From contig NC_089431.1 of assembly GCF_026210795.1 (NCBI RefSeq), positions 5,208,001-5,272,000 of the forward strand: a DNA stretch of 64,000 nt, given 5' to 3'. How positions within the stretch are numbered: position 1 is the first letter of the stretch; each line of letters begins with the position of its first letter. A program made the translations under genes and the position numbers. The notes beneath the pieces are model-generated. The model had not been told where the DNA came from and ran no database searches. It saw only the letters and a list, made by a program, of their open reading frames with translations. This document shows, in pieces, positions 10,363 through 62,914 of this stretch. The DNA is from Rhizophagus irregularis. Lineage: Eukaryota.

Positions 10363-10439
10363 TGTTGCTGACTTAGCCAAGACTTTAAAAATTTGTTGTC
10401 ACCTGATCACCACGTTGAGGTGCAACAACATTGATCAGG
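10363..10439 (-). ncRNA. HDV-like ribozyme candidate, copy A
   Basis: Reverse strand reads CCUGAUC AA UGUUGUUGC ACC UCAACGU GGU GAUCAGG UG ACAA CAA..UUG GCUAA GUCAGCAACA; P1, P1.1, P2, P3, P4 and J4/2 C can all be assigned. Confidence 0.6.
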
Positions 10440-11810: not shown

Positions 11811-11850
11811 GTGACACATGAAGTCACGTGAAATGATACTCGCATTTAAA
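11811..11850 (+). promoter_or_regulatory. E-box pair promoter module
   Basis: GTGACACATGAAGTCACGTGA upstream of ATG 11938. Confidence 0.5.
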
Positions 11851-11937
11851 TAAGGTTTTAAAACTAAGACTTTTTTGGACTTTTTTTCTCATTTCCTTGA
11901 AATTTTTTTTTCTTTTTTTTTTATCTACAGAATTATA

Positions 11938-15324: not shown

Positions 15325-16520
15325 GATATAAAATAGATAATTAATATAATTTTTTTTTTTGTCATAAATATATATATATATGTATATTACAAATTTTTTT
15401 TTTAAGAAATTGTCAATATTTATTTTTAAAGGTTACTATAAATATCAAACCTTGTGTATTTTTTGATTTTAGTTATTCCACAAGTTGATTTATCTATAAA
15501 AGAATTTTCTATTTTTCATCATCAAGACAATCTTTACGAAATTTAGGAATCCATTTATTCTAGTTTATTTATCCATTTTCACTTTTTACGTGACTAAATA
15601 TTTTGTTTTTTTTAACGCACTGTAAAATGTAAATCGCATAAAATAGGATAAATGCCATATAAATAACGCTAGCAAATGTGACGATCATATGATGGATGCG
15701 TAATCGGACTTCGGGAACATTTGTTTGTCGTGTGTATCGTGTGTAACCTTTAACGTCTTTAGGCGTTTTTTGAAAATCAAAATATTATGCGCAGCCACAC
15801 GGTGTAAAACTTTTTTACAGGATACAGGATACAGTGAACCAATGCATAATATAGTTATTATCATATTAATATGGTTATCTAACTAACACAAATTTCAACT
15901 CTAAAAACATTGTAATATAACGTCATGAACAGAATTTAACATATTCGAATATGTTTTTTTTAATTCTTCCATAATGAATGTAAATTTGGATAAATAAATT
16001 TTCAGAATATTTCCATAATTTATTATTTTTATCGATAAAAAAGCAAAAAGATAAATATTTTCCGAACCGCAGTCAGTTTAATACTTCGAAAAAAAAAAAT
16101 TTAACTCGAGTTGACTCGCCGAGTCCAACAACCAATTTCAGGAAACCGTATTGATTTTATACATTTGCATCGTAGTTTAAATTCTTTATTAAATAAAGTT
16201 AATAATTAGCTGTACAAAAAATTATAAAACGAATAATTAACAATATACAAAAGTAATAATAAAAAAAAATAATTAAAATGTACAAATAAAAATGTGTTGG
16301 TTAAATGCTTAGAAAAAATGCGATAAAATATTTATTTATCGTGAGCTTCAGCGGTTGACTTTTTCTGTTCAATGAAAATTAAGTATTGAATTTAAATACC
16401 TAAAGATGGTTTGAATATACCGGTTATATGAACTTACATAAATGTGCCGCTGCAGAGCCCAATTCATTTGACTTATAAGTTATGACGCATCAGGTAAGTA
16501 GCCTGCGTTGTAATTTATTA

Positions 16521-31339: not shown

Positions 31340-32803
31340 CTACATGTTTATATTTTTAATTACTCCTTCAATTTTATATTTATCGAACAATTTCATATAT
31401 GAATTATTTTTTCGATAAAAACTAATATCCCCTAAATTTATGGAAACTGCAGGTCGTCCTTTCCATTTTTCAAAGAATGTCTCTAAAGTTTTTAAAGAAA
31501 GCTTAATGTCATAAGGAATTCCAATTTCTCTTAGATTTGTTGATGCTTCCCTAATTAACGTATTTAACAAGTAATCTCCATATATAAACTCACTCTCTTC
31601 ATCACAATATGTGTCTTTAACATTTAATGATCGCAATTTTTGACATTTTTTAAGTAATTTTTCAAATTCAATAAATTGATTTTCAAAAAACATAGGGATT
31701 GATAAATATTCAATTAAAAAACAATTTTCACAAATTGTACGAAAAAAATTAAGAGTGACATCATCATAATTATCATAATCCCAGTCAAAATCATCGATCC
31801 TTAATTCTCTAAGACATAAACTAGTATATTTAACCATGCAAGTAACTTGATAAATATCTGCATAATCTATCTTCAGGATCTCAAGGTCACGATAAGCCAC
31901 CATTTCCAATTTTTCATTAAAATCATTATTATTTAAAAATAGATGAGAATTAATTTCTAATATTTTTAAATTATGAAGTTCTAGGAGTGTATATTGTAAA
32001 AATGAATAATCATAAACAATGAGGTCATCATGATCATACTGAATGCTTACTTCAAAATGATTAAGAGTATTTGCATGTTTTTTTAACAAGTTAAAAATTT
32101 CTGTGTAAGGATCTCCTAATTGTTCCCAATCAAAATCATCATCATCTTCTACAAATTCATCTATCCATTTAAAATATTTTAAATTATTTTGAAATTCAAT
32201 TAACTTAGCAGTTCCATGATTAGCATTTAAGTTTTTATTAATAATAATAATTCTTTGTATTTGTTGACAAATATGTGCTAGTCTGTAAAAGTAACTAGAA
32301 CCAATCAACGTGTCAAATGTTAATTCACAAAGTGACTCAAGACGGACCTTTGCTTCCGGAAGGTATACAATCTCATATGTATCACATATATTTAAATACT
32401 TTATTTCTGGACATTTTTTTATCAATAAACTGTAAATTTCCTCTTGTAAAAGAAATTGATTATATTCTGATGATGATCCAATAGAAATTATAGCATCTAT
32501 AGTTCTTATATTTATACTCTTACAGAAAGTCAAATAATCAAATACAAGTGATTGACCAGTAATTTTAACTCCTTTCTTTGTTAAGGATTCTTTAATATCA
32601 TTGGATAAATAAGAAGTAATAATGGAGTATAAAGAATTTTTTTTATAATAATTAATGGCATAGCGCCAGGGGTTCCTCCATAAAATTGGAACCACTGTTT
32701 CACACCAAATTCTATTAACCATTAGGCATGAAAAGAGGAATTTTGAATTATCTTGTAATTCCTCAAATATCAAGAAAAGAATGTCTTTATTAAGTTTGGA
32801 CAT
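31340..32803 (-). CDS. F-box domain protein with degenerate LRR-like region (intronless, 487 aa)
   Basis: MSKLNKDILFLIFEEL..LFSCLMVNRIWCETVVPILWRNPW N-terminus typical of Glomeromycota F-box proteins; LxxLxI repeats. Confidence 0.85.
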   Translation of the reverse strand: MSKLNKDILFLIFEELQDNSKFLFSCLMVNRIWCETVVPILWRNPWRYAINYYKKNSLYSIITSYLSNDIKESLTKKGVKITGQSLVFDYLTFCKSINIRTIDAIISIGSSSEYNQFLLQEEIYSLLIKKCPEIKYLNICDTYEIVYLPEAKVRLESLCELTFDTLIGSSYFYRLAHICQQIQRIIIINKNLNANHGTAKLIEFQNNLKYFKWIDEFVEDDDDFDWEQLGDPYTEIFNLLKKHANTLNHFEVSIQYDHDDLIVYDYSFLQYTLLELHNLKILEINSHLFLNNNDFNEKLEMVAYRDLEILKIDYADIYQVTCMVKYTSLCLRELRIDDFDWDYDNYDDVTLNFFRTICENCFLIEYLSIPMFFENQFIEFEKLLKKCQKLRSLNVKDTYCDEESEFIYGDYLLNTLIREASTNLREIGIPYDIKLSLKTLETFFEKWKGRPAVSINLGDISFYRKNNSYMKLFDKYKIEGVIKNINM

Positions 32804-33948
32804 TTTTTTTCGAAAAAGAAAAAAATAAAAAATATTAATTAGGATAAAATAAATAGTACATAATATATAAAACTCCGATGTACGACACTTGTACGACCAT
32901 AATGCTGATCGATAATGTTTCACCGGAATATACATGGTAAATATAAGTTCATTGGTGCAAATCTAAAATTGGTAGTTTAAATAGTGCATGTAGATCACAA
33001 AATTAATTGATGAAAAATAATTCGGCTGATATCTATTTTTTTCATTAAATGTTAAAAGGTTCAAAAGTAATGTAAAAGCAAATGAAATCTGTAAGAATTA
33101 AAGCGATTTTTTATTTCAGAATCGAATCAAAATTTATAATTGTTCCCATTTTAGATTTACCAAATTGAAGTCTTTTCCAAACAAATTTTATTTTTATCAT
33201 CAATATTTGGTATAGTAATTAATGGCTTGAATTCAAGTTTTGATAAATTTTCAGTAATTGACAATCTTTTAAAATTTTGGAATGTTCGTTCTATGATGGA
33301 AATGAAAATAATTGTTGAACTAATTGACAATTAAGAATGCATGAGCACATTATTGCTTAATATTTGTAAAATTATGCTTTAATAGTATTTCCTTGAATGA
33401 TAGATATCTAAATCATGTGAGTGTATATTAGCAAATTAGTACAATTTTCTTTTCAGAGTTTTAACTAAACTTTAAAATAAAGCGCCCGGCCTGCATTATT
33501 TTTGACCAAATTATAATATTTTTTGCAACATTATATTCAAAAAACGGGTGCTTAATAATACCAAAACAAATCATGCCTAAAAAAGTAACGACCGAAGAGT
33601 AAATCGCTCATATATTGTCATCAACCAAATTCGCTATATTAACATGCTAAAAATGGTATTAAAACAACGAGAGGAGTACTGTATATTAAATAAAACAACG
33701 TGATCTGATGATTGATAATGACTCGTAAACGATATTTGTTATATTTTCTAAATATGGCAACGAGAAATGGAAGTAATAAAATAGTGTAAATGGGTATAAA
33801 AAAAATGTATGATGAGGAAAGATTATAGGATATATCATACTAATTAAACTATGTATATTAAAAGAGTGTTGAGTTTTGCGAGTAAGTCTACCTTGTACTA
33901 TAAAGAATCAGTTTAAAAGCAAAATTAAGGAATACTTAAATTCACATT

Positions 33949-37221: not shown

Positions 37222-38722
37222 TTAGCGTTTATCATCAATCCTATTCAATTTGAATACTTCACATTCTTCTATAGTGAATTGATTTGTAGTTTTTCTAATT
37301 GGTTTTTCATAAAAAACTTTTTTACAATAATTACCATTTAACATGCTCCATATAATAAAATCATCTTTACCAAATGATGGACCATTAAGAAAATTATTAA
37401 TTATTGCATTTCCTTCATTCATTACACGACTTAAGATATAATTTTCATTATTAAAAGAGAATATAAAACTATCTTTAGTAGTTCCATAATATCTATCAGA
37501 TTTCCATTAAATTGGATTGTATCCTCCAAGAATTTCGTTACTACCATTAACCTTAACAATTGTTACTGTGTGAGATTCACCATCACAAATTTCATGAAAT
37601 TTATCTCGTGTAAGTCCATCACGAGATCCACGAAACAATAATTTAAATTTGAAATTAGTGGTTAACTTATCAGTAATTTCTAACCTATTGACCCATTTCA
37701 AGATTAATTCAGCATGTTGATATGTAATAATTTTTGAATCAATAGCTCTTAATTTAGGAGTTTCTCTAAACATATGAGGTTTTGATTCGTTATTTGGTTT
37801 ACTACTAGGATCAGAGAGATTTAAAAAAGTTTCTAATAGGTCTTTATATAATTCTTTTGGTAAAATTCTTTTAAAAGGTAATACTTTATCTGTAAATTCT
37901 TTGGAAGTGAAATTGTAAAAATTAATAAATGGAATACAATGTTGTAAGGTATTCTTTAAAGTATTAAAATCATCTTTTGAATATCTTGTAAAGTCAGAGG
38001 GAAGTTCAGGATTTTGAGCAAGTCCCCATTTAAGAACTTGCTCCCAAATTTGAATTTCACTCATTTGAAGGTTATCACTTTGAATAATTGAAACTAAAAG
38101 TTTTTCTGAAACTGAAGAAAAATTTGTAGATTTGAATATCTTATCCGGTTCCTTTGTAACTAAGTCAGTACAATATTTTTGAAGATTCAAGAACGAATCA
38201 TTTTTAAAACTTGCTTGATAAATGAAATCAAAATTTTGTTCCATCCAACTTGCTTTATTGACTATCAAGAAGGATTGTAAATATGTGATTAATTCCTGAA
38301 GACTAAGTTCATTAGCAGCAATTAAGATTTTAATTATATCCGAAGCATCATATTCTTTCAAAGGAAGTCTTCCTCCATAAATATACCTAAAATATAAAAA
38401 TAAATAAATAAATATTCGTATATTCGTAATAAATCATGTCTACATTTTATAATTTTTATACATACCTCAAAATAATTTGAAAAATTTCGGGTGAAATATT
38501 TGGTAATTTGATATGCGTCAAAGTTTCGTCATTCTTCTTTTTATTAGTTGACAAAATTCTTCGCAAATAAGGAGAACGATAATATAAAACAACTATATGA
38601 GCACGAAAGACTCTTACATAAGGGTCATTACCAACTTCAATTGTAATATCATAATATTCATCATCATTCAAAATTTCAAGTAAATTTTGTGATAACTTTG
38701 GTAAAAACTTATTGTCATCCAT
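37222..38722 (-). pseudogene. BTB-BACK-TLDc copy 6 with in-frame nonsense codon in TLDc
   Basis: Exons 38722-38466 and 38386-37222; GGYNPI-TAA-WK at 37507-37509 where paralogs have GAA; frame continues intact afterwards. Confidence 0.88.
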
Positions 38723-39745
38723 TTTTATAATTTTAAACGTTAACGAAAGGAATGAAGGAAAATTAATCCAAATTTGTATACAGTCAACCGGCTCAGCCCT
38801 TATATAATTTAGTTCTATATTCTGTACAACAATAAATTTAATTGAGACTAAAAATAGCTGATCAGCATAAACAGGACCCAAAATATAAAAATTTTTATTA
38901 CCTTTATTAGATACTGGCTGACATTATCTTTAATTCCGTCCGGCCCTAATAAAATGTATTATTTTAGGGTTCTTTTTAAACTCCCAGTCTCCCATTTTTT
39001 ACAAATGATCGACGTTAAATACTTTATTAGTTATCTGATAGAAATTAATAATCTTGCTGAATGCACAAATATAACGTAACGGTCGTAACGTTGCTATAAA
39101 TTTGAGTTTAAACATTTTGATGAATCGAAATATACCTTTTTACTTTATACGGTACATTCAGTAAATTTTGATTACCATGAGGAAAAATTATTATACGAAC
39201 AGTACAAAAATTAGTGTAGCGCATCGGTTCACTTAAGAATTATTCAATTGATAGTATCTATCAAATGGAATAAACCGTTGGCATTACTGACAACAATTTT
39301 TTTTTTAATTTATTTATTGAATTTAAATTTCTTTTAAGTAACTTTTAATTAATGACTATTAACAAATATATCCTATTATATAATATAAAAAAATAATTTT
39401 TATATAAGTTTTCTCTGTTTGACAACAATATAGTATTAATTCATAATATTGTTCATTTGAAATATTTTCCTAAATTTATCACTTTGATAAATCTATTTCT
39501 TGGAAAAATAATTGTTTCATTATAATTTTCGTTCACTAATGAGATTTGTCTAAGTTCTATAGAAAATGTAATCGGAATATCTAATTTTTTGCAAAATGTC
39601 AATTTCAGTGCTTTTTATCGTTCGCGCCAAAATTTTACTATTGATCATATAATAAATCAAAACGAATATCATGTTTTGTCCTAATTAATATTTATTATAT
39701 AAGAAGTTGTGGGATTTTGGCATATTAACAAATGCAACATAAATC

Positions 39746-41233
39746 CTATACAATTTGAAATACTTCAGATTCTTCCACCGAAAATTTATCTACAGTACTT
39801 CTAATCGGTTTTTCATAATTCTTTTGTTTGCAAACATTACCACAATACTTGCCAAATATATAAAGATCACTTCCAAACGATGGACCACAATTTTTACTAT
39901 TCCATGTAGAATAATTTTCATTCGTTACGCGACTTAAAATATATTTTTCAGTTCCATTATTGTGAAAAGAGAATATAAAACTATCTTCAGTAGTGCTGTT
40001 ACTTTGATTTGATTTCCATTCAATAGGATTATATCCACCAAGAATTTCGTTACTATCTTTCACTTTAACAATTGTTACTGTGCGTGAATGATTATCACAA
40101 ATTTCATGAAATTTATTTGGTGATAGTCCATCTCGAGATCCACGGAATAATAATTTAAATTCATATGAAGAAGTTAACTTGGCTGTAATATCTAATCTAT
40201 CAATCCATTTTAAAATTAATTCAGCATGTTGATACGTTATAACTTTTGAATCAATAGTTTTAGATTTAATTTCTTTAATCATTCGTGGTTCTGATTTATC
40301 AATTGGTTTACTGTTGGGATCCGAAAGATTTAAATAAGTTTTTAATAAATCTTTATATAACTCCTTTGGTAAAATTCTTTTATAAGGTAATACTTTATCT
40401 GTAAATTCTTTAGATGTGAAGTTGTAAAATCTAATAAAAGGAATAAGTTGTTGTAAAGTATTCTTTAAAGTATTAAAGTCATCCTTTAAATAGTTTGTAA
40501 AGTCAGAGGAGAGTTCAGGATTTTGAGCAAGTCCCCAATTAAGTATATATTCCCAAATTTGAATTTCACTTATTTGAAGGTTACCATTTTGAATAATTGA
40601 AATTAAAAGTTTTTCTGAAACTGAAGAGAAATTTGGTGATTTGAATATCTTATCTGGTTCTTTTGCCACTAAATTAGTGCAATATTTTTGAAGTTCCATA
40701 AAAGAATCACTTTCAAAACTGACTTGATAAACGAAATCAAAATTTTGTTCCATCCAATTTGTTTTGTTTTCGATTAAAAAAGATTGTAAATACATGATTA
40801 ATTCCTGAAGACTAAGTTCACTGGCAGCAATTAGGGTTTTAATTATGTCTGAAGTATCATAATCTTTTAAAGAAAGCTTTCCTCCATAAATATACCTAAA
40901 TTAAAAAAATAATAATAATTATTAATAAAATATAATAAAAAACGTCAATAATTTTATATAGTAATCATCATACCTTAAAATAATTTGAAAAATTTCAGGC
41001 AAAATATTTGGTAATTTGATATGTGATAAAATTCCATCATTCTTCTTTTTTTTATTGATTGACAAAGTTCTTTGCAAGTAAGGAGAACGATAATGTAAAA
41101 TAACCATATGAGCACGAAAGACCTTTACGTAAGGGTCATTACCAACTTCAATGGTAACATCATAATATTCTTCATCATTTAAAATTTCAAGTAAATTTTG
41201 TGATAACTTTGGCAAAAACTTGATATCGTCCAT
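39746..41233 (-). CDS. BTB-BACK-TLDc protein, copy 7 (exons 41233-40974, 40895-39746)
   Basis: Domain motifs incl. LLFRGSRDG, ILGGYNP, GPSFGSDL; conserved intron. Confidence 0.92.
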
Positions 41234-42239
41234 TTAATAATTTTTTAAAAAAAAAGAAAAAAAAATCAATCCATATTTGTAAATGTTCAAACCTTATATA
41301 ATTAGTGGTTGTGCTCTGTGCAACATTAAATTCAGCATCGATCGTCAAATGTGCGCAGCAGGACTCTTCATATAAGGCCAAAAAAATTGAATTATAATAA
41401 TGCCAGCCAGTATCTAAAAAAGGAAATAATTCCTAATCTAGAGTTATCAAAAAATATTCGTAAAAGGAAAGAACTACATGATTATTTTGTATGCAGCTAA
41501 TGTAATTTTACGTTGTTTTCAAATGTTGATTGCGTACTTAATATTCTCTAAAAAAAGTCAATCCGTTTTTTATATTCCATCTTTTTTCCTAAAAGGCTCG
41601 TATTTTCAGAATTAATAACCTTATATCATAGAATTTATCAAATTTTACATTTTCCGTGAATGAATCCGGGAAAGGCTCATTTTTACAGAGTTTTTGCAGA
41701 AATAACTGATAAATTTTTTTATAGGGATTTTCCTAACGCGGATTGAGTCGATATTAAACGTTTGGCCAGAGTTAACAAAATCTAGCAAAATTTTTAAAAA
41801 TATTCTTACCGAGATAACCAGATTCTTACCAGTTTATTTTCAAATACCGATATTTAAACAAAATACTGTAAAAATAATTTCATACTTTATGCGTATTTAA
41901 TTATTGGGATCCTATGCTGAAAAGCGATTTCTACAACTACTTCACATATATTTTTAATAGAACTATCCCAAAATTTTTTATGCGGCATGGGCACAAAATA
42001 ATCGCAAAAATGTGCAAAATTTCGTGCATAAAAAAATTGATTTTGCGTACCCCGAAAAAGCGCATTGTCTGCATATTTAGTGATGCACAATTAATTGTTC
42101 AAAGTTTTGTGCATTTTCAACATAATATATTGTAAAAATATAACTTTATTATTTAATATTTTATAAATTAATTGCGTAAATTTAGCATTTTTTGTTTGCA
42201 ATTTGTATTCTAATCTAAAGTACAATAAAACTATAAATA

Positions 42240-43570
42240 ATCAACGAAATCAAAACCCACCAAAACCTAAACACAAAATATAAAAATAAAACCAAATAGA
42301 TTAATAATTAGTAAAATTGAAACTAGCCAAAAATAAATAAAATTGATACCAACCGGAATATAACCCAAGGAAAATTTAGCAATGTGTGAAAATATAAAAT
42401 AACTAAATAAATTTGTTAGTAAACTGAAATGCGTGAAATACAAAAATACCACAATAAAATAATTAACTTAAATGATAAAATAATGAATTAATAAAATTAA
42501 TGCCAACCGAAAATATAAAGATACAATAAATTTATTAGTAAATTTGGAAAAGTGTCACTCTTAATCGTACTAATGAATGTGCAAATAGTAAAGATATTTG
42601 AGCTGCGTTAATAATTGCTTTGCGCGATATTCCTGCAGCTCAGAAATTATGCTGTCATCATTGCGAAAAAAGGCCAACAAATGATGTAACTTTGGTGGCA
42701 TGGTGGACATGGACGAATTATAAATCAAAATGTGCAAAATATAAAAGAACAACCAAAATCAGCAGAAGTGTTGTGACGAATTAGCAAAATTAAACAATAA
42801 ACAATAAATAGTGAAATTGATACCAACCAGAAATAAGAAGTTCCCAAAGAAATATTGGATGTGTGAAAATATAAAAATAACCCAATAAAATTATTAACGA
42901 AATTCCAACTTGAAATAAATATAAAATGATCAAAGTACTTAGTAAAAACCAATAAAAAAACAACAAATTAACCAATCAGGTATATGAAAAAATATTGGCA
43001 AATCAAAACACATGAAAAACCAACCGAAAATATAAAAATAACTCAAGAATAATATAAATGAAACCAGACAATATAGATAGTTCAAGAAAATGTTAACGAA
43101 ATATAGTATTAACGAATCAAACAAAAATCAAGATAGAAATTGATTCAATAAAAATAATATCAATGAAATCAAATCATAAACAGAAATTGAAACAAAAATC
43201 AATATAAAAAGAGATCCGATAGAAATATAAATGAAATCGGAGATCAAAGATAAAAATTTCAATGAAATTGAACCAGAAATCAAAGTAGAAAAGATTCAAA
43301 AATAATATTAACCAGAAACCAAAGATAATAGATCAGTAAAAAATATTAAAATCAAACCAGAAATTAAAATGGAAAATTTCTACTGAAACTAAAGATAGAA
43401 TTTTCCAAGAAAATATTGAAATTGAACTAGAGAATGGCCAAGAAAATATTAACCAAGTCAGATAAAATTTCCAAAAAAATAAATATTGATGAAATCAGCA
43501 GAAATCAAGATAGAGAATAACCTTAGAAAATTTCAAAGAAATATTAATGAACCAAAATCTGAAATCGGAA
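42240..43570. repeat. Degenerate A-rich tandem/dispersed repeats
   Basis: Recurring AAATTGATACCAACC..GTGTGAAAATATAAAA units and GAAATCAAGATAGAA-like units. Confidence 0.55.
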
Positions 43571-45758
43571 ATATACTGTATTTATATAAAATTGCAAAAG
43601 CTTAATTATACTATGGTTGCCTAATTAAAACTTATTAAATTTTGACCGATAATATTTATAGTTTACTGGATAAATAAACCAGATAGGCAGGATCAATCTT
43701 TCATTATATGAATTTCAGTATAGTTTTCAGTATGGATATAAAAATTGGTGGTACAGTTAATGATGACCATATGCCTTGATGTTAATAGTATGGATTTACT
43801 TCGGATTTATGGGTTTGACGTACCGTTCAAAGATCCATATGATCTTTGTTTCATTAATAAAGTGTGGTGCCCTGTTTTGCAAAAAGTTAATGTAGTTAAA
43901 ATTTTAAGCTGTTTAAATAACAGCCATGGGATGTTTAATGGAATCTAATTCGGAAATAGTCTTTTAAAGCTAATAATTATGTAACCGCAGTATATCCGAT
44001 TCTTCATCCTGATAATAGATCTATCTGATGATTGATTTACTATTCACATAACTGATCAGTTTATAATTTTACTACACCATCCGTTTGAACAAAACCCAAA
44101 GTCCTACAAAAAGATGTCCTTATGGTATCACTAACAGGAAAGATCCTTTTAGATTTGAGTTTGTAGAAGGAATACACTTTTTGCAATCAGCCTGAACACA
44201 ATTCACTTTTCAACTAAACAGGAATTAAAATAATCATTATTTAGTTTGTTTCTGCATCAGATGTTTTTACAATTACAAATCTTCTTTAATATTCTGTTTT
44301 CTATTTTATGCACACCTTGTAAAAATAAAAATTGTACTTGACTTCAGTATTAAACTGATCATATGACTGCAATCACGTGATTATTTCATTACAGGATAGT
44401 AAAAGTTAAAAGTAGGGGGTACGAAACTACGAATATCAGCCGCCTAAAATAAATTAGCTTAGTATCACATGATGATGTACGTATAAGTCGAATAATATTT
44501 ATAAAATCTGCAACCAAGTATTATACATGGAATGGCTGGAATGCTTGAATCTGATGCAATGAGATATGAAGAATAGATTTTAAATAATGATATGTTTTTA
44601 AATTGACAAGAAATTAATTACAAAAAAAAATAATATGATATCAGCTGACATAATCTACATAGTTATTAACGTTAATAAAAAAAAATGTTAAGTGTAATTA
44701 GTGTAATTAAATCCAAAATTTCAAAATATGACTATAAGAAATTCTCATAAGAGCAAATGAAAATTAAAGAAAAAATAAAAAAAAAATAACAAATAAAGAA
44801 TTAGAAAGTGATGAAAGTGATGCTTAAGATACAAATTTATAAACTGTTTATTAAAAAGAAAAAATAATTTTATATGATACAATACTTTGCAGTAAATTGT
44901 AAATAATTACTAATTTTTTGTAAAAATGAACATGTGCAAAAAAAATTTCTTAATTTGTACAAATTTAAACAAAATGACGTACAATATTTTGTAAACAAAC
45001 TGTAAAAAAAAATTGTGCAAATATTAAACAAGAATTATATATGCAATATTGCGCAATAAATTGTAAAAAAATAGTAATATTTTTGTGCAAAAATTTAATA
45101 ATTTAAATTTTTTATAATATATGAATTATTGCGCACTAATGTTATTTTATCCAAAAATAATTAAATTATATCACATTTCAGTAATTATGTACTTTTAACT
45201 TTTGCCATGGATTTAGTATACATGTGTATGTTGTGCCCCAGGTGTCGATTTGCATTAGATGAATTGATGCCTGATGCGCGTCACCTGTATCGCACAATCA
45301 AGACTTTCATGATAAAATTACTTTTTATTTTATAAGTAAGTAATTTAGTATATTACAATAAATTATACATATTATGAAAATTTTATACTTACTTGATTTA
45401 TGTATTAAAATAACGTTTTTTTAAAGGGTTGAATTTTTTTTTCCGAAACTTAATTTATAATTTTAAGTGAAATATTTTTCCATGAGTTTTAATCAAATCT
45501 AATATTTTAGGATTACATATTTTTTAATGTGATACTAATAAATTTATTTATAATAAAAAACTGAATTCATTAAGACTAGAAAATTTACATTCAATTATAT
45601 ACTGTAAAAAAAATCGCAAATGAAAAAATAATTTGACAATTCAAAGTCGCTTTCGTGATAATTAAGTACAACTACATATTATGCAATATAAATATAAATC
45701 TCAGCTTATAGAGAATTACATCGTTTATTTATATGTATTACTAACTAAATTGAACATC

Positions 45759-47240
45759 CTATACAATTTGAAATACTTCGAATTCTTCTATAATAAATTG
45801 ATCTGTAGTTTCTCTAATCGATTTTTCATAACAAGTAATTCTACAAACATTACCATTATAATTGCCCAATATAATAAGGTCATTGCTAAACTTTGGGCCA
45901 CTAAGAGATTCATTAAATATAGCTCTATTTTCATTTGTTACACGGCTCAAGATATGATTTTCAATTCTATCATTATTGTTAAAAGAGAATATAAAACTGT
46001 CTTTAGTAACGCTATGACTTTTATCTGATTTCCATTCAGTTGGATTATATCCTCCAAGAATTTCGTTACTATCTTTCACTTTAACAATTATTACTGTGCG
46101 TGAATGATTATCACAAATTTCATGAAATTTTTCTCGTGTAAGTCCATCACGAGATCCACGAAATAATAATTTAAATTCATATTGAGTGATTAACTTATCT
46201 GTAATTTCTAATCTATCAATCCACTTCAAGATTAATTCAACATGCTGATACATTATAATTTTTGAATCAACAGTTCTTAATTTAATTTCCCTTATACGAG
46301 GATTTGATTTATTAATCGGCTTACTATTAGGATCAGAAATACTTAGAAATGTTTTTAATAATTCTGTATCCAATTCTTTGGGTAGAATTTCTCTATAAGG
46401 AAATACTTTTTCTAAAAATTCTTTTGAAGTTAAATTATAAAATCTGATAAATGGAATAAATTGTTGTAAAGTGTTTTTTAAAATTTTAAAATCGTCATTT
46501 GAATGATTTGTAATATCATGGGAAAGTTCAGGATTTTGAGCAAGTCCCCATCTAAGAACTTGTTCCCAAATTTGAACTTCACTCATTTGAAGGTTATCAC
46601 TTTGAATAATTGAAATTAAAAGTTTTTCTGAAACTGAAGAGAAATTTGGAGATTTGAATATCTTATCTGGTTCCTTTGTCATTAAGTCAGTACAATATTT
46701 TTGAAGATCCAAGAACGAATTATTTTCGAAACTTGTTTGATGAATGAAATCAAAATTTTGTTCCATCCAATTTGTTTTATTTTCAATCAAAAAAGATTGT
46801 AAATATATAATTAATTCCTGAAGGCTAAGTTCACTTGCAGCGATTAAGATTTTAATTATATCCGAGGCATCATCATATTCTTTCAAAGAAACTCCTCCTC
46901 CATAAATATATCTAAATTAAAAAAAAAAATGAATATTCGGAAAATTTATTAAACAATGACAATCATTTTACAATTATTTATACCTTAAAATTATTTGAAA
47001 AATCTCAGGTGAAATATTCGGTAATTTGATATGTGATAAAGTTCCATCATTCTTCTTTTTATTAGTTGATAAAATTCTTTGCAAGTAAGGAGAACGGTAG
47101 TGTAAAATAACCATATGAGCACGAAAGACCTTTACATTTGGATCATTACCAACTTCAATAGTAACATCATAATATTCTTCATCATTCAAAATTTCAAGTA
47201 AATTTTGTGATAACTTTGGTAAAAATTTCTTGTCGTCCAT
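45759..47240 (-). CDS. BTB-BACK-TLDc protein, copy 8 (exons 47240-46984, 46911-45759)
   Basis: Domain motifs; conserved intron. Confidence 0.92.
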
Positions 47241-48805
47241 TTTTATAAAATAGTTAACGGAAAGGAAAGAAAAAAAATTAAGCCAAATTTGTAAAAATGA
47301 TCAAACCTTAAACCTTATATTAATTGGTTTGTTGTGCTCTGTGCAACATTAAATTTAATTGACTGTATATGGAATGCGTCGATCGTCAAATGTGCGCAGC
47401 TCATGATGTATTGATGTTTTCCAATTTTGCTTGCGTCAATTTTTATTTTCCTACCATGTTTTTTTGTATTATGTACGTCTAAAATCTTAATTTAAGTCGC
47501 TATTAAATACTTGGCCAGGGTTAACGAAAGCTAGTGAAATTTTTAAAAGTTTTAATTCTCATCGAGATATACGGGTTTTTTAGTACCAATTTATTTATCA
47601 ATACATCATATTTAATCATTAGGGTACTAGTATGCTACTAAAAGGGGATTTCTCCATAACTTCACAATAAAAATAAATTTAGTTCATTCTGATTTAAATT
47701 TTTTCCTGCATTCACATTAATCCAAAAATAACAAATTATCACATTTAACATTTACTATGTATATTCTTTATCTTTTGACGTAATTTTCGAGTAAGTTTAT
47801 TTATCACCTATCATAGCGATGCATAGCCTCTGGGAATAATTACATAATTCTAGCCAAAATTAATACATGTGACATTTAAAGAGTGTGAAAAATAGATTTT
47901 TACAACAAAAAAATTTTTAGGTCCCAAACCGAAATACATATGAAAAATGAAAAAGTGAGGGTGACAAACATATGGGCTAATCCGACTCACCAACCAAATG
48001 TCACATGAGAATAAGTGTGACAATATCGAACCAATCGAATTTAGTGTAACAAACGAAAAAAAAATCAAAAAAAAATATTTCGAACGCTTCTTTTATGTAA
48101 TAAAACCATTATAAAATACCGTCAAAAATAAAGAATAACCCTTAAAAATATGCTGTTTATTATATAAATTATTATAAATACATATAATATACAATAATTA
48201 CAATAATTATTAAACAATAATGCCTAAAAAATAAAAATAAACCTATTAATATATTTAAAAAAAGTTTTACAGCGTAAACTGCTGTTTAAAATGCCTTAAT
48301 AAACGTAATAATGTGCAAATAATGTTATAAAAATAGAGCACATTATACTAACTTTAACATGTCACATATTTACAACATCCAATAGGAAAACGATTCCCGA
48401 CGATTCCCCACCATATTGTTTTTTTGTAGAAAGCTTATCTAAGTTTATTTTATTTGCAGATCATCACAAATTTCATATATATTCCGCAATTATATCACCT
48501 GATCATTAATTAATGAAATGAGTCCATATGAAAGGGTAATAATGACATCGCACGTGCGATGAATAAATTATGTCATTTTTTAATGTAATTTATTACACAT
48601 GTGTATATAAAACATAATAAAAAATTATTATCACAAAAACGACATGGATCACTATTATCAAATCATTTATTTCACTTACAATTTTTAAGTATAAAAATAA
48701 TGTTAAATACAAATCTTATAGCTTGGAAAGAATTTATTTCGATTAATAATATGCGTTAAATACAGTGAACTAATTCTATCATTGTTACGAATTTAAATAC
48801 CAATC

Positions 48806-50301
48806 CTATACAATTTGAAATACTTCGAATTCTTCTATAGTAAATTGATTTGTAGTTCTTCTAATCGGCTTTTCATAATAACTTTTTTTGCAACAATTAC
48901 CACTGTACATGCCCAATATTATAAGATCATTGTTACCAAATTTTGGACCACTATGAGGATCATTAAATATAGCATTTCCTTTATCCTTTACGCGACTTAA
49001 AATATGGTTATCAATTCTATTATTGTGAAATGAGAATATAAAACTATCTTCAGCAGCCATAAAACCACCCTCATATTTCCATTCAATTGGATTATATCCT
49101 CCAAGAATTTCGTTACTATCTTTCACTTTAACGATTGTTACTGTACGTGAATGATTATCACAAATTTTATGAAATCTATCTTGTTTAAATCCATCACGAG
49201 ATCCACGAAATAATAAATTAAATTCATACGAAGAAGTTAACTTATCTGTACTTTCTAACTTATCGACCCACTTTAAAATCAATTCAGCATATTGATACGT
49301 TATAATATTTGAATCGACAGTTATTGATTTAATTCCTTTAGTTATACGAGGTTTTAATTCAACATTTGGTTTACTGTTGGGATCCGAAAGATTCAAGTAA
49401 GTTTTTAATAAATCTTTATATAATTCCTTTGGTAAAATTCTTTTATAAGGTAATACTCTATCTGTAAATTCTTTAGATGTGAAATCGTAAAATCTAATAA
49501 AAGGAATAACTTGTTGCAAAGTATTTTTTAAAGTATTAAAATCATCCTTTGAATAATTTGTAAAGCTAGATGGAAGTTCAGGATTTTGAGCAAGTCCCCA
49601 ATTAAGTATATGTTCCCAAATTTGAATTTCACTTAATTGGAGGTTATCATTTTGAATAATTGAAATTAAAAGTTTTTCTGGAATTGAAGAAAATTTCGGT
49701 GATTTGAAAATTATATCTGGTTCTTTGGTCATTAAATCAGTGCAATATTTTTGAAGTTCCATTAATGAATCATTTTCAAAACTCGTTTGATAAACGAAAT
49801 CAAAATTTTTCTCCATCCAATTTGCTTCATTTTCGATCAAAAAGGATTGTAAGTAAATGATTAATTCCTGAAGATTAAGTTCACTGGCAGCAATAATGGT
49901 TCTAATTATGTCTGAAGTATCATAATCTTTCAAGGAAAGTCTTCCCCCATAAATATACCTAAATTAAAAACAAAATAATAATAAATATTAATAAAATATA
50001 ATAAAAAAAAACGTCAAATTATTTTATAAAGTAATTCTTCATACCTTAAAATAATTTGAAAGATTTCAGGCAAAATATTTGGTAATTTGATATGTGATAA
50101 GGTTCCATCATTCTCCTTTTTATTAGTTGACAAAATTCTTTGCAAGTAAGGAGAACGATGATGTAAAATAACCATATGAGCACGAAAGACCTTTACATTT
50201 GGATCATTACCAACTTCAATTGTAACGTCGTAATATTCTTCATCATTCAAAATTTCAAGTAAATTTTGTGATAACTTTGGCAAAAACTTGATATCGTCCA
50301 T
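48806..50301 (-). CDS. BTB-BACK-TLDc protein, copy 9 (exons 50301-50045, 49958-48806)
   Basis: Domain motifs; conserved intron. Confidence 0.92.
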
Positions 50302-56431: not shown

Positions 56432-58722
56432 TTAAAATTCATCTAAAGATAAAAAATTAACAAATTAGTGAATTGATTAGTTTTAATAGCTTTAAAAAGA
56501 AACTTATTTATTTAAGAAATTATCATCAGGAATTTCCAGTTCATCTTGTTCTTTTAAAAGAAAATTTGGATTATTATATATTTCGTCAATCATCTATAAG
56601 AAAATAAACATACTTAAAAAATAGTATAAGGATTATTCGTTATTATGTAAAATTTTCACCTACCATCGACATTAATATTTTGCCCTTTTATTTGTTGTTG
56701 AGTTATTTCTTTTTCATCATCTAAATTTAAATAAAGTCGCGTTCAATAATAAATAAATGAAATTAATATAATAATGAATTTTATTTGTTAGTAATTTATT
56801 ACTATTCTTACCATTTGAATTTATTTGCAACTTTTTAAATAATTTAGATAATTTTTTATTACTATCTAAAATTTAAGATATTGATTTAATATAAAAATTC
56901 AATCTTGATTTGACAAAAAAACAATAATTAAAATACATTACCTCTAAAAATGGTAACTATTTTTGATGATTTGTTATTATTCTGCTTATTTGATTTATCA
57001 AACTCGTTAACTAAAATAAATATCAATTATTAAACATCATTAAATGGTATTACTATTGTTAGAAATGTTAAAATCATACAATTTACTATGAAACGCTATT
57101 AGTAGTAATAACGAAAGTAAATTATTATAGTAACAAAAAAAATGGTAGAAATTATTGGTTATACCTTCTTGTTCTTCTATTATAATATAAATTCAAAAAA
57201 AGATCATTAATAATGTATTTTAAAATAAATACATTCGTTAATAAAATATTACCTTCTGTTGCATTTCTTGGTTCAGGTAGATTTTCAAAGTTGTGAATTT
57301 TACTTGTAAATAATTTGCTACTCGTATAATTTTCTTCTACCTTATTCCTTTCTAAATTATCTATTTCTGATTTTAATAATTCATCTGGTATATTTTGATA
57401 ATCTAAATTAATTTTATTCATTTTGGTATCAAGTGCATCAGCGTCAGGTCTTTTTAATGGATCAGCATCCCAACATTCTTTCATTAAATTTTTATATTCT
57501 AATGGAGTTTCTGACACAATTTCTGGCCTTATACCGTTAATAATATTCATTACAATATCATTTTCATTTTCATAATTTATAAATGGTGGTTGTCCTGATG
57601 AAATTTCCCACATAAGAATTGCAATACTATAAATATCAGATGCAAAAGTATATTCTTTTCCAACAATAACTTCGGGCGCTATGTAAGGAAGACTTCCATA
57701 TATACTTGTTGAAGATTTATCAGCAGGTCCACAAAATCCAAGATCACTAATACACCAACGACCATTAAGTTGTGAATATAATATATTTCCGGAATGCAAA
57801 TCTTTATGAATTGCTTTCTCAAAATGAATATAATAAAGCGCACGAGTTATTTGATTAATAATTTTCATTCTATCTTTCCATGTAAGTTTATTATGATTTT
57901 GTTGTAAATAATTTCTTAAATCTATATCCATTTTCATCATTACAAGCATATAATTTCCATTTGATGGATTTTGTGTTAAACCATAACATTGAACAATATC
58001 TACCCATTTATTACTTATAGTTAAATGTGATTTAGCCTAAATGACAACATACTATTGTTAATATAAAAAACATGATTTTATAAATAAATTTCAAATAAAA
58101 TTATACAAACCTCTTCAAACCAACTTTGATTTGCACTTTCAACATTTTCTAACGTTTTAAGTACTACTTTTGCCACTATGTTTTGTATTCCAGGTCTTTC
58201 AATTCTTTTAATTGTTTTTTTTTCAGAATCCCATTCTTCATAATTTCCATTAATCCAGTCTGCGGTATAGATTTCAGAGAATCTACCTTTTGTTAAATAA
58301 TTAATATTTTCCAAATTGTTATATGGAATCCATTCAACTATCATTTGTGGATTAAGTGATTCCATTTGACATTTCTGTATTAAATTGTCAATATCATTAT
58401 TCCCAGATGTCCAATTTGAAAATTTTTCTTTTAAATAATTTTGTACACAACATTCACAATATAATGTGGCCAAACATTCTTGGTTACAATTTTCACAAAT
58501 TCTTTTTGTTCCCGAATTAAAACTAATTTTATATCGATCATAATTTTTAGTCAATAATCTTATTGCTTCAGTTTTTTCATCATCTGTAAGAATTTTATCA
58601 GCAAGGACTGTTTGCTTTCGAAATTCAAATTGTTTGTGTATATCATTGTAAATACTAGTATCAATTGACATTGTTGCTCTTTTATTTGTTGCGTTAATTA
58701 ATTTATATCGAAGAGTGGACAT
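56432..58722 (-). CDS. TKL kinase K5, paralog of K3 with microexon tail (may end at 56504 because the last donor is lost)
   Basis: CENCNQECLATLYCECC, WTSGN, TKGRFS, VVLK, HKDLHSGNIL, DLG, YIAPE; 12-nt exon 57165-57176. Confidence 0.83.
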
Positions 58723-60239
58723 AATGTAATTTATAAATTGAGGGAGGAGAAAGAATTATTTTAACTTCGTTCATTCAAACCCGTAATAAATTAATAAAAA
58801 TGAATGCAAATTGCTGATCAAACTTCATGTTGTGCCCATATAAATTTGTGACCTTAAGGAGTAGTATTTGACGCCTCATGACCAAAAAAAGAAAACAATA
58901 TAATATGTTTCTACTAATAAATATTATCGTACTTTCTAATTTTTGTGTTTAATAAATTTGGTGTAATAAATAGATAGCCTTGTCAATCAATACCATTAAT
59001 ACCGTATTACCTAAGTGGTAAAAGAATAGAAAAAATTTTTTAAAAAAGCCAAAACCAGGGGGAAAAATTTTTTTTTTAGTTTGAAAAAAGGACCAAACCG
59101 AAAAAAGAAAAGGTTAAAATATTTATAAAAAAAATTTTCAAAAAGAAAAAAAAAAATCGAAAAAAATTTTAGAAAAAAATACCGACAAGGAAAAATTAAA
59201 AATATTCTGCGGTCGATTGTATCACTTCAAGAGAACGGGAAAGGAAAATAATTAATAAGAAAACAACATTAACTGCACGACAAGATTGGTCATTGGAACA
59301 TACAAATGACCATACTGCCAATCAAATTTTCTAACTATGATAATGAATCAGGCGCAGGTACATAATTCAAATTACTTATATAGAGCTTAATCTAAATATC
59401 TCCTAATATTTTTAATTATATAGATTGTCTGGTTTAACGAAAAAAATAATTAAATAAATTTAGTTGGTTTAACCATTAAATGAGAAACCAAAAGGAAAAA
59501 GGAAAAAAGTTCGTTCTATATTGCGCCGATCGCATTAACATGACTTTTTTTGCAAAAAAAAAATATATATATATTCATTCATGCAAATCATTTCGATGTA
59601 TTCGTCGTAACGTAATAAAAAAAAAATAATAAATCATTTTTTATTATAAATTCATGGTAACATACAGTATGTAATAATATGGTTAAACAAGTATTACTTA
59701 TCTCCTGGCTAATTAGGAATAAGTAAAATTTTACTATTCCAACTAGACCGGGATATAATTGATTTAAGCTTACGCCAACATCATTAGATAAAATGAAGAA
59801 CAGGATAAGAATATAAATTATTTATTAGTCATTTAACGTTTAACATTATATCTGTCATTTATTTAGTGAAATTAGCTAGCTGAATTGTCACTATCGCGTA
59901 ATTTGAAGGAATGTGTTTTCTAATATTATTGTATCCGGACACAAATTCTATATTTTATAAAATTTTCGTATTATAAGATCCGTAATATAATTTATATGAA
60001 GTATCCGATAAAATTGGATGCAATTATTAAATTAGAAGTTTTCGTGGTAATCAATCGTGGTAATAATATGTATAAATAACAAAGAATCTTTTTTAGTAAC
60101 CTTATAGAATTGTAACTTAATTCAGTAAACTTTATAATAATCGCTGATTTGGTTAGAATCATTATATAGGATATTCAATGAAGTTTACTTTTTTATTAAT
60201 TTTAGGTAGCTAATTAATTATACATTTAAAGGTGGACAT

Positions 60240-60400
60240 GATAACTAACTATGATTAATATAGCAACATACTTTAATCCACTACACGACTTAAACGTAAT
60301 TTTTCATTAGAAGACTATAAAATTGTCTTTAGCAGTACAATGATTAAACTTCCATTTAATTATGTTATATCCTTCAATAATTTAGCTATTTTTATTATAA
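60240..60400 (-). pseudogene. Orphaned TLDc remnant downstream of the BTB-MIF4G chimera
   Basis: IIEGYNIIKWKFNHCTAKDNFIVF..NENY..LSRVV matches ILGGYNPIEWK..TKDSFIF..NYILSRV of paralogs, with disruptions. Confidence 0.75.
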
Positions 60401-60428
60401 TATCTTATAATTTGTGTTGTGTGATCGT

Positions 60429-62467
60429 CTATAACTGAATCATTCCTAAAGTCAGCTCATTTATCAAAGCATCAATATTTCGTTGAGGATTCCAATCATT
60501 TTTTCGTAAATTTATAATATCCTAAAAAAAAAAAAAATTTATTAGATATTTTATTAATAAACATAATAAGAAAAATTCAAAAATATTTAACAAAATTTAC
60601 CATTAACATAAATTTAATGCGGTTTGACAAACTTGGAAGCTTTGATATTTTCTCTAAGCGATTGAAATAAGAATTCATACCTTTTTCTTTTGTTTTCTTA
60701 ATCTGTTTTTGTTTGACATGATCAAGTTGTTTCCCTACCGTATTCAATAATATACATAAACTTTCCATTTCTTCTTCTTTAGGTGAGTCTTTAAATATTG
60801 ATAATTCCGATATACAATTATGCATGATATTTTCTGTGAGCATGTTTAATTTAAACATTTCACCAATGAAACATATTAAACCCAGACCTTTTCTTTTAGC
60901 TTTTGCAGCCGCATAATATTTGTCTGATGTCAGATCACTTTCATTGGAAGACGATGGGATGTTAATTTTCCAACCTTTCTCAAAATCTTCTTGACAGTGA
61001 TTAATAAGATACTTTCTAAATAATGTACCACCTTGAACAGATTTACCATCGGTATTTTTGATACTTTCATCAACTATTTCAGGGTCAACTCTTTCCATCA
61101 TCTTACGACAAAGATAAGCATAAATTGCACAAAATTTTGAGTCATTACAAGATCTCTCAAATATTAGTCGAATAATTTCTCTTAATATACGTCCATCTCT
61201 TTCACCTCTTGACTTGTTACCATAAATAATAATTTGATCTGATAAAGATTCAAAATTTTTCAACGTTAATTTATTTAATAACGCATTAACTTTACGTTGC
61301 ACCATGTCAAGATGACCTGAACTTTCCGAAGTTAGTAATAATGTGCTTCCACTTCCAGTACGACCAAGTGCAGCTCGTCCAAAGATGCTTGAAGTAGTTG
61401 GTATTTCATTTCTCTTTGTCGAAGCAATAATACTTTCTTCACTTGTTTTCAAGGGGAAGAATTCAAATTCGTTCATTTGATTGAATTGAGACTGATTCGA
61501 ACTAATACGAGGCCTTGATTTATCACTTGACTTGCTATCAGGGTCCAAAAGACTTAAAAACGTTTTTAATAAATCTTTATATAATTCCTTCGGTAAAATT
61601 CTTTTATAAGGTAATACACTATCCATAAATTCTTTGGAAGATAAATTGTAAAATCTAATAAATGGAATACATTGTTGTGGAGTATTCTTTAAAGTATTGA
61701 AATCATCCTTTGAATATTTTTTAAAGTCAGTGGGAAGTTCCGGATTTTGAGCAAGTCCCCATTTAAGTAAATATTCCCAAATTTGAATTTCACTCATTTG
61801 AAGATTATCACTTTGAATAATTGTAATTAAAAGTTTTTCTGAAATTAAAGAAAAATTTGGAGATTTGAATATTTTATCAGGTTCCTTTGTAATTAAGTCA
61901 GTACAATATTTTTGAAGGTCCAAGAATGAATCATTTTTGAAACTTGTTTGATAAACGAAATCAAAATTTTGCTCCATCCAATTTGTCTTGTTTTTGACCA
62001 AAAATGATTGCAAATATACGATTAATTCTTGTAAACTAAGTTCACTAGCAGCAATCATTACATTAATTATGTCCAAGGTATCATATTCTTTCAAAGAGAG
62101 TCTTCCTCCATAAATATATCTACAAAAAAAAATCATCTATTCAGTATTTGCAAAATATCAATCATTTACAGTGTGTATTAAGAAAAAATAAAAACCATTT
62201 AAGTTCGTACCTTAAAATTATTGGAAATATCTCTGGTAAAATATTTGGTAATTTAATATGTGTCAAAGTTCCATTATTTTTCTTTTTATTCGTTGACAAT
62301 ATTCTTCGTAAATAAGGAGAACGATAATATAAAATAATAATGTGAGAACGGAAAATTTTTACGTCAGGATCATTACCAACTTCAATAGTAATATCATAAT
62401 ATTCTTCATCATTTAAAATTTCAAGTAAATTATGTGATAATTTTGGTAAAAAATTATCATCATCCAT
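60429..62467 (-). CDS. Chimeric BTB-BACK-MIF4G (eIF4G-derived) protein (exons 62467-62211, 62119-60601, 60521-60429)
   Basis: BTB/BACK as in paralogs, then VQRKVNALLNKLT, FCAIYAYLC, LFRKYLINHCQEDFE, RKGLGLICFIGEMFKLNML, EEMESLCILLNTVGKQLD, SNRIKFMLM|DIINLRKNDW. Confidence 0.9.
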
Positions 62468-62601: not shown

Positions 62602-62914
62602 TAGAGGTTGGAACCGTCCAAAAAAACCTTAACCGGTTAATTAACCGGTTAATATAAAAATTTTTTGCTCCGATTTTTGATTTTACTAACACATTTAGTT
62701 GAAAGAAGAATATTTTTCATCAATACCATTATTAATAAATAGGAAAAAATTTGGTATTAAAACTTCGAGTTTGGGAACACATGACTGAAATTACCAAGTC
62801 TCTGAGCCGCATTAACTAAATCTGACCAGAATTACGGATTTATGGTCAAAATAGTTTTAACCGGTTAACCGATGTCTTAACCGGTCTTAACCGGTTCAAA
62901 CCTTCAAACCTCTA
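62602..62914. mobile_element. Non-autonomous hAT MITE upstream of the chimeric gene
   Basis: TIR TAGAGGTTGGAA/TTCAAACCTCTA, perfect 8-bp TSD GTTCTTAA, subterminal AACCGGTT repeats. Confidence 0.93.

What the first reader, a model, noticed from the sequence alone, without database searches (positions are those of the whole stretch)
60429..62467. BTB-BACK-MIF4G chimera: a Cullin-3 adaptor scaffold fused to the eIF4A-binding domain of eIF4G
Seen: BACK runs in frame (junction near KSRPRI, ~61505) into an eIF4G-like linker and a complete MIF4G HEAT domain; ORF intact, including an intron-split last helix. Known: BTB-BACK recruits Cul3; eIF4G MIF4G binds eIF4A-type DEAD-box helicases. Inference: a new adaptor that could ubiquitinate or sequester eIF4A or related factors, i.e. 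translation control by a recruited decoy domain.
Basis: partly seen in the sequence, partly recalled or inferred. Interest (0 to 1): 0.85.

Follow-up and report, generated by a model that had tools for sequence, protein, structure and literature searches.

The report
Ubiquitin-adaptor gene captures eIF4G, twice
In a mycorrhizal fungus, one copy of a large BTB-BACK adaptor gene family swapped its usual end domain for the helicase-binding core of translation factor eIF4G and has been kept by selection; a similar fusion arose separately in another fungal order, and the protein likely tethers eIF4G's partners to a predicted ubiquitin-ligase scaffold (binding and expression untested).

Summary
The chimera is real. 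Three exons give a stop-free 622-aa BTB-BACK-MIF4G protein identical to a Rhizophagus irregularis database protein; the junction is in four separate gene-model sets. It is the last of 10 BTB-BACK genes in the window. A genomic piece of eIF4G, with its ancestral intron, sits between BACK and a TLDc domain whose remnant has decayed (50-55% DNA identity, many stops), while BACK keeps dN/dS about 0.25 and MIF4G changed 11 of 82 conserved sites against about 23 expected, with no stop against about 5. R. clarus has an orthologue. Diversispora epigaea has three BTB-BACK-MIF4G-MA3 genes from an independent fusion (AU p=1.6e-5). Expression and binding were not shown. Verdict: a real, selected, recurrent domain capture not found in my literature searches; function likely but unproven.

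The parts
62211..62467 (-). Exon 1, from the ATG; first part of BTB
62120..62210 (-). Intron 1 (91 nt, GT..AG); a GT donor lies at the same place in the four minus-strand sister BTB genes
60601..62119 (-). Exon 2: rest of BTB, BACK, junction, eIF4G linker and most of MIF4G in one open frame
61504..61989 (-). BACK region (residues 130-291), 84-86% DNA identity to array sisters over the exon-2 part compared, dN/dS about 0.25
61498..61505 (-). 5' fusion junction: similarity to sister genes stops, eIF4G similarity starts
60468..61497 (-). Captured eIF4G segment (about residues 869-1260 of the 1645-aa eIF4G P0143), with a 63-residue linker deletion that removes the Trp anchor motif
60498..61299 (-). 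MIF4G/HEAT1 domain, 70% identical to R. irregularis eIF4G
60522..60600 (-). Intron 2 (79 nt, phase 0), at the same position as an intron in two other fungal eIF4G loci
   Evidence: L001, L002
60429..60521 (-). Exon 3: last MIF4G helix (D842 equivalent is its first codon), then a 12-residue tail read mostly from the TLDc remnant, and the stop
60070..60463 (-). Decayed remnant of the host gene's TLDc domain (10-18 stops per frame; 50-55% identity to sisters)
62602..62914 (.). 313-bp MITE-like element 135 bp upstream of the ATG, with terminal inverted repeats and an 8-bp target duplication (hAT-like, recalled)

Best explanation
A BTB-BACK-TLDc gene in a tandem array took up a genomic piece of eIF4G in place of its TLDc domain and has since been kept under purifying selection in both halves; the product likely acts as a BTB-dimerised, predicted Cul3-type adaptor whose MIF4G domain likely binds eIF4A or other eIF4G-HEAT1 partners weakly, holding them off cap-dependent initiation or marking them for ubiquitination. 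Shown: structure, origin by DNA-level capture, selection, an orthologue in R. clarus, an independent fusion in Diversispora (confidence about 0.9). Inferred: expression; dimerisation (from BTB family knowledge); eIF4A binding through the retained helix-1 core and the R835/D842 equivalents; Cul3 recruitment. Because it has no eIF4E site and no MA3, it could not bridge cap to ribosome, so any binding would be non-productive.
For: Open 622-aa frame. TLDc remnant decayed to 50-55% identity while BACK stayed at 84-86% and sister TLDc at 75-82%; intact sisters show 0 stops and 0 frameshifts in 6 of 6 control alignments. BACK dN/dS 0.21-0.29 in 4 of 4 pairs with sisters. MIF4G: 11 of 82 highly conserved sites changed, against 19 of 72 and 38 of 91 at less conserved sites (Fisher p=0.0003); neutral simulations expect 22.5-23.7 such changes (0 of 300 runs reached 11 or fewer under each of 6 models) and 4.9-5.9 stops (P(0 stops) 0.01 or less). 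Ancestral eIF4G intron kept. BTB-BACK is sister to the R. clarus chimera P0006 (95/93), with 3 shared derived MIF4G residues absent from 15 canonical eIF4Gs. The same BACK-TLDc slot was filled by eIF4G independently in D. epigaea. R835 and D842 equivalents, which form the secondary eIF4A interface (PMC3064780, passages), are kept. The Cul3-clamping loop aligns without gaps to that of gigaxonin.
Against: No expression or binding data. Trp579-equivalent motif deleted; it matters for eIF4G-eIF4A binding (PMC9177959, passages). MIF4G branch 0.34-0.37 against 0.014-0.018 for eIF4G, and the 11 changed conserved sites include K655, D658, E659 and S834 equivalents. The acidic Cul3 motif of KBTBD2-type loops is absent (motif recalled). 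All named records of the intact gene carry the DAOM 197198/181602 label or continue its RefSeq entry, whereas eIF4G and the BTB-less copies occur in many strains. One of four gene-model sets splits the gene by a 29-nt gap in the linker. The R. clarus model stops 48 residues into MIF4G. Three other R. irregularis descendants kept MIF4G but lost BTB. BTB-BACK genes also carry EF1G, DnaJ zinc-finger and NBR1 domains, so capture is frequent.
Confidence: 0.42

Rival explanations
1. An accessory chimera under relaxed, fold-only constraint: it is translated, so stops and destabilising changes are purged, but it no longer has a specific partner and is being lost strain by strain.
For: MIF4G evolves about 20 times faster than eIF4G; anchor motif and MA3 deleted and eIF4A-side residues changed; apparently isolate-restricted, like its array neighbours; one neighbour has a stop in TLDc; R. 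clarus model truncated; BTB/POZ genes belong to strain-specific accessory sets (PMC8647823, passages).
Against: Survived a species split and long enough for the adjacent TLDc to fall to about 52% identity; BACK dN/dS equals that of intact sisters (0.25 against 0.18-0.35); the same architecture arose and triplicated in Diversispora.
Confidence: 0.3
2. What selection favours is an eIF4E-independent eIF4G fragment (DAP5-like); the BTB gene only supplied promoter and start codon, and BTB-BACK is a passenger.
For: At least three R. irregularis genes (P0013/P0126, P0076/P0137, P0414) and one in R. diaphanus (P0022) start with BTB-family N-terminal remnants and keep MIF4G, mostly with MA3, across many strains.
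Against: In this copy BTB-BACK is whole and constrained while MA3 is lost; the BTB-less copies show no excess conservation at conserved sites (p 0.5-1), unlike this copy; all three Diversispora genes keep BTB.
Confidence: 0.12
3. An integrated bait: MIF4G mimics eIF4G to catch viral or other foreign proteins or RNAs that target HEAT1 and hands them to Cul3; changes on the eIF4A face would then avoid poisoning host translation.
For: Fold kept while eIF4A-side residues drift; fast evolution, presence-absence among strains, repeated capture of housekeeping domains by the same scaffold. Viral proteins are known to bind eIF4G HEAT-1 (PMC4703368, search listing only).
Against: No foreign ligand known for these fungi; no test of positive selection was possible without eIF4G DNA; the pattern fits relaxation equally.
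Confidence: 0.13
4. Assembly or gene-calling artefact.
For: One gene-model set splits the locus; no read-level check was available.
Against: Junction lies inside one exon and is present in all four gene-model sets; the MIF4G is 30% diverged from eIF4G, so it is not a mis-joined copy; orthologue in R. clarus.
Confidence: 0.03

Closest known systems
BTB-BACK-Kelch Cul3 substrate adaptors (KLHL11, gigaxonin, KBTBD2, KEAP1)
   Same: BTB followed by BACK, with another domain in the C-terminal substrate slot; gigaxonin and KBTBD2 are the best PDB sequence matches of residues 41-209.
   Different: MIF4G instead of a Kelch propeller; similarity is weak (E 4e-4 to 5e-3); Cul3 binding of the fungal family untested.
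Expanded BTB/POZ (BTB-BACK-TLDc) family of arbuscular mycorrhizal fungi
   Same: Direct parent: 77-83% protein identity to four array sisters and shared intron 1; the expansion is described in PMC3886924 and PMC8647823 (passages).
   Different: TLDc replaced by an eIF4G segment and left as a dead remnant.
Fungal eIF4G (R. irregularis P0143/P0453; yeast Tif4631, PDB 2VSO)
   Same: MIF4G 70% identical to the same species' eIF4G; best sequence and fold match 2VSO; intron shared.
   Different: No eIF4E-binding region, no Trp579 anchor, no MA3; about 20-fold faster evolution.
DAP5/eIF4G2 and other eIF4E-free MIF4G proteins (PAIP1, CWC22, Sgd1)
   Same: MIF4G without an eIF4E site; such domains can stimulate or inhibit eIF4A-type helicases (PMC7237134, passages).
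   Different: Recent derivative of eIF4G itself, lacks MA3 and W2, and is fused to BTB-BACK.
Diversispora epigaea Glove_271g17, g30, g40 (database proteins, P0259, P0158, P0155)
   Same: BTB(-BACK)-MIF4G with the insert at the BACK-TLDc boundary; two end in TLDc-like residues.
   Different: Different BTB subfamily (39-40% identity), junction about 95 residues further into eIF4G, keep the Trp motif region and MA3; MIF4G groups with Diversispora eIF4G.

Membership tests
BTB-BACK Cul3 adaptor | BTB domain | tested here: met
   PF00651 56.2 bits, cut-off 20.5
BTB-BACK Cul3 adaptor | BACK domain / 3-box after BTB | tested here: met
   PF07707 28.0 bits, cut-off 20.9; KBTBD2 aligns through this region at E 0.005; 3-box role from PMC3597819 (passages)
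BTB-BACK Cul3 adaptor | alpha3-beta4 loop able to clamp Cul3 | tested here: inconclusive
   Basic loop without the acidic residue seen in KBTBD2, but gap-free match to gigaxonin's loop; that gigaxonin binds Cul3 and the phi-x-E motif are recalled
BTB-BACK Cul3 adaptor | Binds Cul3 and promotes substrate ubiquitination | not testable with these tools
BTB-BACK-Kelch (KLHL/KBTBD) | Kelch repeats | tested here: not met
   No Kelch hit
AMF BTB-BACK-TLDc family | BTB-BACK nested in the Rhizophagus/Glomus expansion | tested here: met
AMF BTB-BACK-TLDc family | Intact TLDc domain | tested here: not met
   Only a decayed remnant downstream of the stop
eIF4G | MIF4G/HEAT1 fold | tested here: met
eIF4G | eIF4E-binding region (PF12152) | tested here: not met
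   Present in P0143 at 769-831, absent from P0123
eIF4G | Trp579-type eIF4A anchor motif | tested here: not met
   W974 of P0143 aligns with the 2VSO tryptophan and falls in the 63-residue deletion
eIF4G | Secondary eIF4A interface (R835, D842) | tested here: met
   Both kept; S834 equivalent is N
eIF4G / DAP5 | MA3 domain after MIF4G | tested here: not met
   No PF02847 hit and no tblastn match of eIF4G residues beyond MIF4G in the window
eIF4G / DAP5 | Binds and stimulates eIF4A | not testable with these tools
   No eIF4A sequence available; no assay

The most novel reading that the evidence does not exclude
Arbuscular mycorrhizal fungi have, at least twice independently, plugged the eIF4A-binding core of eIF4G into the substrate slot of a Cul3-type BTB-BACK adaptor, creating E3 adaptors that degrade or trap eIF4A or foreign factors aimed at eIF4G; the huge BTB-BACK family would then be a platform that captures housekeeping domains (eIF4G, eEF1B-gamma, NBR1, DnaJ) as baits, much as plant NLRs integrate decoy domains.
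Probability: 0.25. Interest if true: 0.85.

Novelty: new variant of a known kind. Interest (0 to 1): 0.58.

Why it matters
The BTB/POZ expansion is one of the largest unexplained features of AM fungal genomes. This locus records, with an internal neutral clock (the dead TLDc), how such a gene swaps its C-terminal module and is then kept by selection, and the same swap recurred in another order. It gives a concrete, cheap test of what the family does (Cul3 and eIF4A binding in vitro or in yeast). If binding holds, it would be an undescribed link between cullin-3 ubiquitination and translation initiation built from eIF4G's own domain.

Tried and rejected
No whole genome was held, so eIF4G DNA, copy number and dN/dS for MIF4G could not be obtained; I used site conservation and simulation instead. 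No RNA or read evidence was obtained. The metagenome scan gave 6 loci of 86 candidate stretches, all distant eIF4G-like genes at 27-48% identity and no chimera; two served for the intron test, two others (L004, L006) showed no intron there, and L003 and L005 were not examined. A single-sequence fold of the whole protein failed (pLDDT 37) and was discarded. No complex was predicted: neither eIF4A nor Cul3 was in hand, and a BTB dimer would pass by likeness alone. Whether this copy and the BTB-less copies form one clade is unresolved (AU p=0.53). CpG content was uninformative. Literature: BTB+MIF4G+Rhizophagus 0 papers; BTB+eIF4G+R. irregularis 0; OCT59+Rhizophagus 0; W579A query 0; a six-term fusion query gave 2 papers that look unrelated by title and abstract start; searches listed no paper on this fusion. 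Eight supplementary files of PMC8647823 had no hit for four terms (file 1 not searched); the supplement of PMC10234402 could not be read and might hold expression data. Earlier scan findings: none. Rejected: retrocopy origin (intron kept); single ancient fusion shared with Diversispora (plus different junction and BTB subfamily); canonical eIF4G paralogue (no eIF4E site, no MA3).

Full report
Observation. The gene lies on the minus strand in three exons (62467-62211, 62119-60601, 60521-60429) with canonical introns of 91 and 79 nt; spliced, it gives 622 residues and no internal stop. Pfam finds BTB, BACK and MIF4G above curated cut-offs. The product is identical to P0123, which NCBI names OCT59_021288 of Rhizophagus irregularis. 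Four accession series model the locus: one exactly as here, two with extra predicted skips (P0002, P0003), and one split in two by a 29-nt gap in the linker (P0122, P0124; gap length counted by hand). All four contain the BACK-to-eIF4G junction, which lies within exon 2 at about 61500.

Context and origin. The window holds 10 BTB-BACK genes; 8 of the other 9 have a Pfam TLDc hit. In this one, eIF4G residues of about 869-1260 occupy 61497-60468. Directly after, 60463 to about 60070 aligns with the TLDc DNA of four sisters (scores 94-146 against shuffle maxima of 79-106). The remnant is dead: 50-55% identity to sisters that are 75-82% alike among themselves, 10-18 stops per frame, and only a 44-codon stretch with a stop still aligns as protein. 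So an eIF4G piece entered a BTB-BACK-TLDc gene between BACK and TLDc. Intron 2 is phase 0 at the same codon as introns in two other fungal eIF4G loci, L001 and L002 (2 of 4 loci examined; the other two have no intron there), so the piece was captured as genomic DNA, not from mRNA, and the splice is credible.

Selection. Over about 195 codons of exon 2 the BTB-BACK part is 84-86% identical to four sisters with dN/dS 0.21-0.29; its own branch estimate (0.25) lies within that of the sisters (0.18-0.35). For MIF4G no parent DNA was available. Using 104 fungal eIF4G orthologues to rank sites, the chimera differs from R. irregularis eIF4G at 11 of 82 highly conserved, 19 of 72 intermediate and 38 of 91 variable sites (p=0.0003). 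Neutral simulations to the same 68 changes give 22.5-23.7 changes at conserved sites and 4.9-5.9 stops; observed are 11 and 0 (6 models, 300 runs each). The simulation treats today's eIF4G as the ancestor, which its short branch supports. Constraint is nevertheless relaxed: branch length 0.34-0.37 against 0.014-0.018. These tests show past selection, not present function.

Relatives. R. clarus P0006 is BTB-BACK plus eIF4G linker plus the first 48 residues of MIF4G; its BTB-BACK is sister to this gene among 35 rows (95/93, bootstrap not fully settled) and the two share 3 derived residues absent from 15 canonical eIF4Gs. The fusion thus predates the species split. Several MIF4G proteins start with a BTB-family N-terminal stub: P0414 (E 2.5e-10), P0022, P0015, P0076 and kin (E 2e-5 to 2e-4); P0013 and kin score only E about 1 with that profile but are near-identical at the N-terminus to P0128, which scores. 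P0015 shares this gene's junction sequence. These look like descendants that deleted BTB-BACK; they occur in many strains and show no excess conservation at conserved sites. D. epigaea has three BTB-MIF4G-MA3 genes on one scaffold, two with a BACK hit. Their MIF4G groups with Diversispora eIF4G (97/91; 99/99) while this one groups with Rhizophagus and Glomus eIF4G (98/97); forcing the four together is rejected (p-AU 1.6e-5, 22 of the 45 rows kept, LG+G4; the group was defined by architecture but tested after I had seen). Their BTB-BACK is 64-66% identical to other D. epigaea BTB genes and about 40% to this one, and their junction falls about 95 residues later in eIF4G. Gene conversion by resident eIF4G could mimic the tree but not the junction and BTB differences. 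I could not see their DNA. Recurrence must be weighed against base rates: eIF4G fragments are duplicated often in these fungi and BTB-BACK genes also carry EF1G, DnaJ zinc-finger and NBR1 domains.

Can it bind eIF4A? The MIF4G folds confidently with a 50-row alignment (pLDDT 88) and matches 2VSO best. Yeast numbering was set from the 2VSO alignment and fits K831, S834, R835 and D842 as named in PMC3064780 (passages). The helix-1 core and the R835 and D842 equivalents are kept. But a 63-residue deletion removes the Trp579-equivalent motif, which contributes significantly to binding in eIF4G though not necessarily in DAP5 (PMC9177959, passages), and the K611, E620, K655, D658, E659 and S834 equivalents are changed; that the first five face eIF4A is recalled, not checked. 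The R. clarus and two Diversispora proteins keep the motif exactly, the third keeps a tryptophan there. Binding is plausible but probably weakened.

Can it bind Cul3? BTB plus BACK is the layout of Cul3 adaptors, where the alpha3-beta4 loop and 3-box grip Cul3 (PMC3597819, passages). Here the loop is basic and lacks the acidic residue of KBTBD2, yet aligns without gaps to gigaxonin's. Inconclusive.

Distribution and expression. The 90% cluster has 5 members; the 4 named ones and P0003 carry the DAOM 197198/181602 label or continue its RefSeq entry, and none comes from the accession series of other strains that do supply eIF4G and the BTB-less copies. One UniRef entry counts two sequences at species level, so a second strain is not excluded. 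Three array neighbours (P0014, P0016, P0029) show the same narrow pattern, so the region looks accessory, as described for BTB/POZ genes in PMC8647823 (passages, section 7). Expression is unknown. A chromosome-level annotation of this isolate used RNA evidence (PMC10234402, abstract and section 8), but I could not tie P0123 to that paper nor read its supplement.

Mechanism and verdict. Origin and selection are well supported (about 0.9). For function I put 0.42 on a BTB-scaffolded, non-productive binder of eIF4A or other HEAT1 partners, possibly a Cul3 adaptor; 0.30 on a relaxed accessory gene; 0.13 on bait for foreign factors; 0.12 on an eIF4E-free eIF4G with a passenger BTB; 0.03 on artefact. 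It works like a BTB-BACK adaptor with a swapped substrate module; it is not a member of eIF4G, DAP5 or the Kelch adaptors. The proteins sit unstudied in databases, and my searches of the held library found no description of the architecture (subscription journals largely not covered). New variant of a known kind; interest 0.58.

Noticed in passing
window 62602-62914: 313-bp MITE-like element with terminal inverted repeats and an exact 8-bp target duplication, 135 bp upstream of the chimera's ATG; single copy in the window. Could affect its promoter.
   Followed up: partly
window 302-13426 (+) and 37240-50301 (-): Nine further BTB-BACK genes in two tandem groups, 8 with a TLDc hit, interleaved with kinase-like open frames.
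   Followed up: partly
window 37510-37512: The sister gene starting at 38722 has one in-frame stop in the middle of an otherwise intact TLDc: a recent truncation.
   Followed up: partly
proteins P0013, P0076, P0022, P0015, P0414: MIF4G(-MA3) proteins that begin with a BTB-family stub and lack the eIF4E site, widespread in Rhizophagus strains; frames are kept but substitutions ignore eIF4G conservation. DAP5-like layout in a fungus; unexplained.
   Followed up: partly
proteins P0119 (cluster of 7), P0021, P0068: BTB-BACK fused to an NBR1 Ig-like domain (several strains and R. diaphanus), and single models with EF1G or a DnaJ zinc finger: more captured housekeeping domains.
   Followed up: no
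proteins P0280, P0142, P0258, P0260, P0390, P0391, P0393: Other eIF4G fragment genes in Glomeromycota: a ubiquitin-like stub fused to MIF4G (Ambispora, below Pfam cut-off), tandem MIF4G repeats (Entrophospora), and an N-terminally replaced eIF4G family shared by Glomus and Rhizophagus.
   Followed up: no
window 13875-15432 (-): Two adjacent fasciclin-domain open frames, probably one gene with a signal-peptide-like start.
   Followed up: no
window 31343-32962 (-): 540-codon open frame without a Pfam hit; its start looks F-box-like by eye (recalled motif).
   Followed up: no
window 57152-58755 (-): Tyrosine-kinase-like gene immediately downstream of the chimera.
   Followed up: no
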